From NCBI GenBank assembly GCA_034226945.1, contig CP120463.1, positions 682,001 through 746,000 of the forward strand: a DNA stretch of 64,000 nucleotides, in the 5' to 3' direction. The stretch is from Picochlorum sp. SENEW3. Lineage: Eukaryota. Below are positions 30,639 to 31,478 of this stretch, one piece after another. The stretch's first letter is position 1, and every line of letters begins with the position of its first letter. The notes under the pieces were generated by a model. The model was not told where the DNA came from, did no database searches, and saw only the letters and a list, made by a program, of their open reading frames with translations. The position numbers and the translations under genes are program-made.

Positions 30639-31478
30639 TTAGGAGCCTATAATCGAGAAATATATGCTCAGCGAAACAATGAGCACGAGTTGCAAGCAAT
30701 TTGCTGGCTTTGGCGAGCCTGATTGAGTTGGCGCTGTGGACAGTGAGGAATCAAATTCAGAAGGATCAATCACGCCGTCTCCATTCGAATCCATTGATGC
30801 TAGTCTCTCAGTTCCATTCGTGAGTGTTTTGATATATACTCCGGCCGGATCTGAAGAGTCCAGGAGATTATTCTCGTCCGCGTCCAAGCATGCAAAATAA
30901 TCCCTGATTTGGTCAAGAGATGTCAATGAGTACGTCTTGTACTTGCCGATCATTGACTGCTGACAAGTTCCTACGATCCCTCCTTCACCCTGCCTTGCAT
31001 TGCCCATGCCTTTGGTCGAGTTTGCTGTTGCAGATAGTTTTCGGCGGGATCCTTCGATGCATCCACCATCACAATTGCAGCCAAAGGCGTTGCAACTGCC
31101 CACACCACAATAACTCCCGACCCTTGCCTGGCCGTTATTGCAGAAATACTCCTGATATAAAAAATGATTTGGGCACATAAACGGTGAATAGAGAGGTGGC
31201 CTTCCGTCACTATATGGGGGTCCAGCGGTACAAAGAGGCTTACACTGGCTATATGGACACTGGCATTGACGCACGTTAGGGTTGGCACAATAACAGACGC
31301 ATGCCTGATCAAATACACTTTTGAAAACTGTGTTCCCTCTCTGGAGTTCGTCCACGGCCTGTAGTCCTGTGTATGCTACATCAGAATCAAAGCAACACTC
31401 TCCCAGAGCCAGCGGAACCCACGGTAAGCAGCAAACTGCAGCGAATAATACACCTTGTACCACGGAAACAAGCCCCAT
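30639..31478 (-). CDS. Secreted Diedel-like Cys-rich domain + EF-hand pair + hydrophobic C-terminal anchor
   Basis: Signal peptide followed by ECC; CNNGQARVGSYCGVGSCNAFGCNCDGGC; EF loops DADENNLLDSSD and DSNGDGVIDPSE; hydrophobic C-terminal tail. Confidence 0.8.
   Translation of the reverse strand: MGLVSVVQGVLFAAVCCLPWVPLALGECCFDSDVAYTGLQAVDELQRGNTVFKSVFDQACVCYCANPNVRQCQCPYSQCKPLCTAGPPYSDGRPPLYSPFMCPNHFLYQEYFCNNGQARVGSYCGVGSCNAFGCNCDGGCIEGSRRKLSATANSTKGMGNARQGEGGIVGTCQQSMIGKYKTYSLTSLDQIRDYFACLDADENNLLDSSDPAGVYIKTLTNGTERLASMDSNGDGVIDPSEFDSSLSTAPTQSGSPKPANCLQLVLIVSLSIYFSIIGS

What the first reader, a model, noticed from the sequence alone, without database searches (positions are those of the whole stretch)
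30639..31478. Diedel-like immune-modulator domain fused to EF-hands in a green alga
Seen in sequence: signal peptide, then ECC, a Cys-rich insert, FCNNGQARVGSYCGVGSCNAFGCNCDGGCIEG, a basic RRKL possible cleavage site, two EF-hand-like loops and a Ser/Thr/Pro spacer with a hydrophobic tail (GPI- or TM-like). The gene is intronless and sits between spacers of about 660 and 940 bp, long for this window. Established knowledge, recalled: Diedel (ECC...CxDG...YCGxGxCNxFGCNCDGGC) is a Drosophila cytokine that dampens immune signalling and has homologues in insect DNA viruses. Inference: a horizontally acquired or patchily distributed surface protein from which a Diedel-like peptide is released by cleavage at RRKL, leaving a Ca2+-binding anchored part. 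I know of no such role described in algae.
Basis: partly seen in the sequence, partly recalled or inferred. Interest (0 to 1): 0.75.

Follow-up and report, generated by a model that had tools for sequence, protein, structure and literature searches.

The report
Hypervariable Diedel surface peptides in Picochlorum
A tiny green alga carries a family of membrane-anchored precursor proteins whose cysteine-rich tip is related to an insect immune protein and often varies sharply between close relatives while the calcium-binding base stays constant, which suggests a set of released defence or recognition peptides.

Summary
The 279-aa ORF (30639-31478, minus strand) has a signal peptide, a Diedel core (PF13164, E 8e-12, above cut-off), an RRKL site, an EF-hand pair and a GPI-like tail. 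It is not a lone or recent insertion: the genome holds 8 intact paralogues plus 1 truncated, and GC and codon use are native. The Diedel + EF-hand fusion is not alga-specific; short soluble versions occur in bacterial, fungal, nematode and mite records. The algal form, named only in Picochlorum, adds an R-x-L site (38 of 42; 6.4 expected), a Cys pair (42 of 42) and a hydrophobic tail (40 of 42); the genome encodes site-1 protease and GPI transamidase subunits. New: in 9 of 14 sets of close relatives, variation piles up in the Diedel part while the EF base barely changes, sometimes as mosaics; this is not shown for the window copy across strains. Best reading: an anchored precursor releasing a hypervariable disulfide-rich peptide for defence or recognition. 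Cleavage, anchoring and function are inferred; the donor is unresolved; an immune-dampening role is unsupported. I found no paper on it, and the scan had not noted it before.

The parts
30639..31478 (-). Whole ORF, 279 aa (P0001), intronless
31401..31478 (-). Signal peptide, residues 1-26 (cleavage before E27 inferred from the family's x-CC start)
   Evidence: hydropathy; alignments
31392..31397 (-). N-terminal CC (C28-C29); in Diedel the N-terminal residues are tethered to the SD2 loop by two disulfides
   Evidence: at least 90% conserved in 35 family rows; PMC3307722
31146..31391 (-). Insert, residues 30-111, 8 Cys: a predicted helical hairpin (about 38-59), then the most variable segment (61-111)
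   Evidence: AF2; identity 6-16 of 51 in 61-111 against 21-23 of 31 in the core, five nearest relatives
31053..31145 (-). Diedel SD2 disulfide core, residues 112-142 (C113, C124, C129, C134, C136, C140; N130-A131-F132 loop)
   Evidence: Pfam; PDB; Foldseek top hit 3zzr, rmsd 1.9 over 33 residues
31032..31046 (-). RRKLS, residues 145-149: site-1-protease-type R-x-x-L / R-x-L-x motif (cleavage inferred)
   Evidence: 38 of 42 anchored members against 6.4 expected by shuffling; 0 of 22 soluble forms; motif per PMC13082318
30741..30974 (-). Lumenal EF-hand pair domain, residues 169-246, with invariant C172/C197 (likely disulfide); loop 1 = 199-210 (30849-30884), canonical loop 2 = 230-241 (30756-30791)
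30702..30740 (-). Ser/Thr/Pro/Gly spacer, residues 247-259 (candidate GPI attachment region)
   Evidence: sequence
30642..30701 (-). Hydrophobic C-terminal tail, residues 260-279, no cytosolic extension (GPI signal or tail anchor)
   Evidence: 40 of 42 anchored members; Gaa1 and Gpi16 genes in the genome

Best explanation
The gene encodes a surface-anchored precursor. Shown: signal peptide, Diedel-type disulfide core, R-x-L motif, EF-hand pair, hydrophobic tail, and membership of an expanded Picochlorum-type family. Inferred steps: (1) the protein enters the ER, where the 16 Cys of the mature part and C172-C197 form disulfides; (2) the tail is exchanged for a GPI anchor; (3) site-1 protease, or a related subtilase, cuts at RRKL in the Golgi; (4) an about 120-aa disulfide-locked peptide is released or loosely displayed, while the Ca2+-stabilised EF base stays on the membrane as carrier or folding aid; (5) the Diedel loop is a constant scaffold and the insert is a variable binding face, diversified by duplication, segment exchange and probably positive selection, as expected for peptides that meet viruses, bacteria or grazers. 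Origin: an old soluble Diedel-EF gene, probably acquired horizontally by the lineage, then given the cleavage site and anchor and expanded. My odds: architecture 0.9, cleavage 0.7, GPI 0.7, biotic-conflict role 0.45.
For: Pfam and PDB hits. 8 intact paralogues over the cut-off and 1 truncated. R-x-L motif in 38 of 42 anchored members against 6.4 expected, 0 of 22 soluble forms; R[RK]L-type motifs are not general in this genome's signal-peptide proteins, 1 of 11 against 34 of 231 others. A site-1 protease gene (S8 + MBTPS1_4th in one 925-aa frame) and GPI transamidase Gaa1 and Gpi16 are present. Variable columns are enriched in the mature part in 9 of 14 close-relative sets at p<0.05, 7 of 14 after Bonferroni, e.g. 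52/129 vs 2/103 and 64/85 vs 0/95. Codon model on 5 metagenomic variants: insert omega 2.49, 2dlnL 6.5, tree length 1.58 against 0.037 for core+EF; in 5 own paralogues core 0.24 and EF 0.21. P0058's three segments best match three different variants. The I-x-P-x-E-F-D ending is shared by 20 of 42 anchored and 8 of 22 soluble forms but 2 of 1504 background EF loops.
Against: No direct test of cleavage, anchoring, Ca2+ binding, target or induction. 5 of 14 sets show no enrichment; gap columns are not independent. Own-paralogue insert omega 2.6 is not significant (2dlnL 1.2), and the whole mature part has omega 0.56. Recombination, gene conversion (two C5 copies are identical over 360 nt of the EF region while their flanks differ) and poor alignment can inflate omega; metagenomic mosaics may be assembly chimeras. 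The window copy shows ordinary strain differences inside the insert (4 in 257 nt, 4 in 168 nt). 4 of 42 anchored members lack the motif. Net charge of the mature part runs from -8 to +10, so it is not a uniform cationic antimicrobial peptide. The donor is unresolved, and absence from other green algae rests on limited searches.
Confidence: 0.5

Rival explanations
1. Self, kin or mating recognition: the polymorphic Cys-rich peptide is an identity label, comparable to Brassica SCR/SP11 or Euplotes pheromones (comparison recalled), kept diverse by balancing selection rather than by enemies.
For: The same hypervariable-tip, constant-base pattern; three proteins with near-identical flanks and very different Diedel parts (P0003, P0006, P0060).
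Against: 8 dispersed paralogues on 4 contigs rather than one multi-allelic locus; sex in the genus is uncertain (PMC11092101 passage); no linked receptor found, only a co-duplicated EF-hand + membrane gene on C5.
Confidence: 0.2
2. Structural or adhesive cell-surface component: a disulfide-rich, Ca2+-stabilised wall protein; the variable insert reflects relaxed constraint and gene conversion, and R-x-L is only a maturation site.
For: Fly Diedel acts as an extracellular-matrix protein (PMC9116668); a 158-aa secreted Diedel-domain protein is the top-expressed gene of Tricholoma fruiting bodies (PMC6980582); gene conversion is visible; own-genome insert omega is not significantly above 1.
Against: No RGD in 8 of 8 paralogues; omega above 1 in one set; a conserved cut separating the Cys domain from its anchor is unexpected for a fixed structural part.
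Confidence: 0.2
3. Autocrine cytokine: the released Diedel-like peptide dampens a stress or defence pathway of the alga itself, as fly Diedel dampens IMD.
For: The exposed loop proposed as Diedel's binding site (Asn77-Ile78-Phe79) is largely kept: N in 35 of 42, F in 31 of 42. Plant peptide hormones use the same protease motif.
Against: A self signal should be conserved, whereas the mature part is the most variable. IMD, JAK/STAT and integrin pathways are animal systems (recalled; not searched in this genome). The SD1 half and RGD are not kept.
Confidence: 0.1

Closest known systems
Drosophila Diedel (CG11501; PDB 3zzo/3zzr; Pfam PF13164) and its ascovirus/granulovirus homologues
   Same: Signal peptide, N-terminal CC, SD2 disulfide loop with the N-x-F tip; 33 residues superpose at rmsd 1.9.
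   Different: Diedel is a 115-aa stand-alone secreted protein with 10 Cys, a ferredoxin-like SD1 and an RGD motif. The algal protein has an 82-residue insert, 16 Cys in the mature part, no RGD, and adds a cleavage motif, an EF-hand pair and an anchor.
Short soluble Diedel + EF-hand proteins (records labelled Tahibacter, Alphaproteobacteria and Thermoanaerobaculia MAGs, Infundibulicybe, Acrobeloides, Sarcoptes; probably also the 158-aa Tricholoma Trima_09940, whose sequence I did not see)
   Same: Signal peptide, Diedel core, then two EF loops; the I-x-P-x-E-F-D ending in the bacterial-type members.
   Different: 135-205 aa; R-x-L in 0 of 22, hydrophobic tail in 0 of 22, C197 in 0 of 22. The anchored forms fall on one side of a 98/95 branch. 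I found no study of this architecture.
Plant site-1-protease-processed peptide precursors (RALF23, GLV/CLEL6, PROSCOOP)
   Same: Signal peptide and an R-x-x-L / R-x-L-x processing motif; diversified secreted peptides (PMC13082318).
   Different: No sequence homology. There the active peptide lies C-terminal to the site and nothing is anchored; here the variable Cys domain is N-terminal to the site and the conserved part carries the anchor.
Hypervariable peptide families with conserved pre/pro regions (conotoxins, amphibian skin peptides, SCR/SP11; recalled)
   Same: Constant flanks, fixed Cys scaffold, rapidly changing loops, gene duplication.
   Different: Analogy of pattern only; here the conserved pro-part is a folded EF-hand domain with a membrane anchor.

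Membership tests
Diedel (PF13164) | Score above the Pfam gathering threshold | tested here: met
   45.9 bits against 21.3; 8 of 8 genome matches over the cut-off
Diedel (PF13164) | SD2 loop: N-terminal CC plus six core Cys | tested here: met
   C28, C29, C113, C124, C129, C134, C136, C140; Foldseek 3zzr rmsd 1.9 over 33 residues, E 0.039
Diedel (PF13164) | Conserved Asn and exposed hydrophobic pair (Asn77-Ile78-Phe79) | tested here: met
   N130-A131-F132: Asn and Phe kept, Ile replaced by Ala here; N in 35 of 42, F in 31 of 42
Diedel (PF13164) | SD1 ferredoxin-like subdomain | tested here: inconclusive
Drosophila-type Diedel cytokine | Small stand-alone secreted protein with 10 Cys | tested here: not met
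   279 aa, 16 Cys in the mature part, EF domain and anchor
Drosophila-type Diedel cytokine | RGD integrin-binding motif | tested here: not met
   0 of 8 own paralogues, 1 of 42 anchored members; function per PMC9116668
Drosophila-type Diedel cytokine | Suppresses IMD or JAK/STAT signalling | not testable with these tools
   Needs assays; function per PMC7940532 passages
EF-hand pair | Canonical 12-residue loop (D-x-D/N-x-D/N...E) in a helix-loop-helix | tested here: met
   Loop 2 canonical here and in 39 of 42; helices in the model; Pfam 24.7 bits is under the 25.9 cut-off
EF-hand pair | Second functional loop and Ca2+ binding | tested here: inconclusive
   Loop 1 ends in D; a relaxed pattern fits 28 of 42; binding not measurable here
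Site-1 protease substrates | R-x-x-L / R-x-L-x motif in a lumenal linker, with the protease encoded | tested here: met
   38 of 42 against 6.4 expected; MBTPS1 homologue at G000:C10 about 68984-70957
Site-1 protease substrates | Cleavage shown | not testable with these tools
   Needs N-terminomics or a mutant
GPI-anchored proteins | Signal peptide, small-residue spacer, terminal hydrophobic tail without cytosolic part; transamidase present | tested here: met
   Hydropathy only; Gaa1 (1 stop inside the match, intron or break not checked) and Gpi16
GPI-anchored proteins | Actual GPI attachment | not testable with these tools
   No predictor or PI-PLC assay available

The most novel reading that the evidence does not exclude
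Picochlorum-type algae run a peptide-library defence or recognition system: a Diedel disulfide scaffold with an exchangeable, positively selected insert is carried to the surface on a constant Ca2+-binding GPI base and released by site-1 protease. This would also make Diedel an old cross-kingdom conflict scaffold (bacteria, fungi, microfauna, algae, a giant virus) that insects later used as a cytokine.
Probability: 0.3. Interest if true: 0.82.

Novelty: new variant of a known kind. Interest (0 to 1): 0.6.

Why it matters
Little is known about how streamlined picoalgae deal with enemies or recognise each other. An 8-member, recombining, fast-changing peptide family stands out in a genus reported to have few gene duplications (PMC11092101) and gives a concrete, testable candidate in algae grown outdoors, where grazers and infections matter. 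For Diedel, described in 2012 as limited to drosophilids, an aphid and insect viruses, the bacterial, fungal, microfaunal, giant-virus and algal forms suggest the insect cytokine role is derived. Three public gene models of family members start downstream of the Diedel core or inside it, and one is named calmodulin-like, which may be why it has been missed.

Tried and rejected
Recent insertion: rejected; GC 0.482, GC3 0.457 and codon index 0.674 lie within the range of 29 window ORFs, and the spacers are ordinary; a contig of a diverged strain joins the gene's start to the next gene (X2, 31460-32456). Insect or insect-virus donor: not favoured, as the viral and Diedel-only forms inspected lack EF hands; core identity does not separate groups (0.49-0.56 to all). 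Donor by tree: 64 rows, 86 columns, 30 of 61 branches open, no root. Algal-virus donor: one giant-virus-like contig has a 112-aa Diedel-like ORF without EF hands and without a Pfam hit at E 0.01; the anchored-family scan of viral contigs gave only 5 insect-virus-type loci. R-x-L as a general algal secretion motif: not seen in a small sample, 1 of 11. Expression: contigs only; an oligo-dT run has two short contigs at the 3' end, and a guessed-RNA run covers parts of the gene at depth 4-9 against about 250-285 for neighbours; not proof of transcription or level. Full-length AF2 model was poor (pLDDT 57) and matched only calmodulin-like chains at E above 0.04. ESM Atlas gave only EF-hand clusters at 0.81. 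The test of whether the Diedel and EF parts bind each other was not available, so released versus retained stays open. Neighbour genes did not identify the 56-59% GC hosts of L040-L048. L032 (Obscuribacterales) is a motif-only hit and was not counted as a member. More paralogues were sought with three divergent members; none found beyond the 9 loci. Literature: no paper with Diedel + Picochlorum, Diedel + secreted + algae or RRLL + site-1 protease + algae; 3 listed for Diedel + EF-hand, none on the fusion by title or abstract, 1 checked by passages; no Diedel, PF13164 or IPR025061 in the held supplements of 4 papers, of which one held only 1,369 characters, so annotation tables I could not see may list the domain.

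Full report

Family in the genome. G000 (13.85 Mb, 14 contigs) has 8 Diedel matches over the cut-off: C12 (the window), C7, two on C3 and four on C5. All 8 have the same layout. A ninth copy on C5 keeps only the EF base and tail; its 5' part is replaced by sequence with dispersed repeats. The C5 copies sit in segmental duplications, 4 of 5 head-to-head with an EF-hand + membrane gene. Three divergent queries found no further loci.

Distribution. Profile searches found many more anchored members. Of 28 anchored-type clusters looked up, 1 carries an organism name, Picochlorum sp. BPE23; one search adds three truncated models labelled Picochlorum sp. or Picre1 (read as P. renovo, recalled). No other green alga was named, but these searches are limited and most members are metagenomic. 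A short soluble Diedel + EF-hand form (135-205 aa) occurs in records labelled nematode, mite, fly, fungus and Tahibacter and in 2 prokaryote MAGs; an exact 8-residue motif scan of 185,579 prokaryote genomes gave 3 loci, one motif-only. One MAG hit lies on a 457-kb contig; the 4.7-kb one and the fly record could be contaminants. Diedel-only forms occur in insects, insect viruses, tandem arrays in metagenome contigs and one giant-virus-like contig. A Diedel-domain secreted protein is the most expressed gene of Tricholoma fruiting bodies (PMC6980582, passages).

What the algal form adds (42 anchored and 22 soluble sequences, near-duplicates left out by hand): an R-x-L motif in the linker, 38 of 42 against 6.4 by shuffling, 0 of 22; C172 and C197, 42 of 42; a hydrophobic tail, 40 of 42 against 0 of 22; a canonical loop 2, 39 of 42. 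The motif matches the R-x-x-L / R-x-L-x consensus of site-1 protease SBT6.1 (PMC13082318, passages). The genome has that protease and GPI transamidase subunits. In 464 kb of the genome, a stricter R[RK]L pattern occurred in 1 of 11 signal-peptide-like ORFs and 34 of 231 others, so the motif is family-specific rather than generic, on a small sample.

Origin. A tree of 64 rows and 86 columns puts all 42 anchored forms on one side of a 98/95 branch, with 30 of 61 branches open and no root. The I-x-P-x-E-F-D ending of loop 2 is shared by 20 of 42 anchored and 8 of 22 soluble forms, including the 3 named bacterial ones, but by 2 of 1504 background EF loops. That favours descent from an already fused Diedel-EF gene over a new fusion with an insect-type Diedel. 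The core alone does not identify a donor. Horizontal gain by the lineage is my preferred inference (about 0.6), old enough to be ameliorated; differential loss is not excluded.

Hypervariability. In 14 sets of close relatives, variable columns were enriched in the mature part in 9 (p<0.05; 7 after Bonferroni) and not in 5 (two further sets were left out, one lacking the Diedel part and one with an incomplete member). P0003, P0006 and P0060 have identical EF bases but differ at 64 of 85 mature columns. For five metagenomic variants, insert omega is 2.49 (2dlnL 6.5) with tree length 1.58 against 0.037 for core+EF; for five own paralogues, insert 2.6 (not significant), core 0.24, EF 0.21, whole mature part 0.56. 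Mosaics are visible: P0058's three segments best match three different variants, and two C5 copies are identical over 360 nt of the EF region while their flanks differ. Recombination, gene conversion, misalignment and assembly chimeras can all inflate these signals. The window copy itself shows only ordinary strain differences in the insert, though against its five nearest relatives residues 61-111 are 6-16 of 51 identical and the core 21-23 of 31.

Mechanism. Shown: architecture, family, motif conservation, processing machinery, uneven variation. Inferred: disulfide folding in the ER, GPI anchoring, a Golgi cut at RRKL, release or display of a disulfide-locked variable peptide from a constant Ca2+-binding base, and a role towards other organisms (0.5 overall). 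Rivals: identity or mating label (0.2), structural wall or adhesion protein (0.2), autocrine cytokine (0.1). Fly Diedel works as an RGD integrin ligand and IMD suppressor (PMC9116668, abstract and section 7; PMC7940532, passages); RGD is absent from 8 of 8 paralogues. Whether the two parts stay bound after cleavage could not be tested. Expression evidence is weak.

Novelty. Diedel is a known family (PMC3307722, parts 1-2 of 4 read). Searches for an algal Diedel found nothing; the 3 papers listed for Diedel + EF-hand do not concern the fusion by title or abstract, one checked by passages; the held supplements of four Picochlorum or Trebouxiophyceae papers do not mention it (one nearly empty). 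The library lacks most subscription papers. The scan's earlier notes hold no Diedel finding. Verdict: a real, apparently undescribed variant of a known domain family, with an unusual anchored, cleavable, variable design; interest 0.6.

Noticed in passing
G000:C5:602000-628000 (L016-L018): Segmental duplications (up to about 4 kb, about 92% identical) holding 4 intact and 1 truncated Diedel-EF genes, six copies of an EF-hand + membrane gene, and small signal-peptide genes with RKLL-type motifs.
   Followed up: partly
G000:C5:619612-620630 (L006): Truncated paralogue: the Diedel part is replaced by lower-GC sequence with 85-91% matches elsewhere on C5 and C8, possibly mobile-element remains.
   Followed up: partly
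L037:2908-3246 (+): Giant-virus-like contig (capsid- and primase-like neighbours, judged by eye) with a 112-aa secreted Diedel-like Cys-rich ORF, no EF hand, no Pfam hit at E 0.01.
   Followed up: partly
L053:1273-2607 (+): 444-aa fusion of Diedel, an EF-hand pair and a trypsin-like protease domain in a metagenome contig.
   Followed up: partly
P0150 cluster (18 members): Signal peptide + EF base + tail with no Diedel part at all, widespread in metagenomes: the base can exist alone.
   Followed up: no
L050, L051, L055, L056, L062: Tandem arrays of up to five divergent stand-alone Diedel-like genes in one eukaryote's metagenome contigs.
   Followed up: no
L057:690-1337 (+): Diedel core followed by a domain that looks like a beta/gamma-crystallin by eye; not tested.
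   Followed up: no
window 26421-29981 (-): 1186-aa multi-WD40 neighbour whose middle region resembles the helical domain of Apaf-1-like STAND proteins by eye; only the WD40 repeats were confirmed.
   Followed up: no
window 24595-26400 (+): Fusion of Methyltransf_FA, BACK and F5/8 type C domains.
   Followed up: no
L040:2444-3655 (-) and G000:C4/C5/C6: KDZ transposase-like gene two genes from a Diedel-EF gene; 13 related matches in G000, mostly on C4 and C6.
   Followed up: no
P0009, P0011, P0017: Public gene models of family members begin downstream of or inside the Diedel core; one is named calmodulin-like protein 5.
   Followed up: yes
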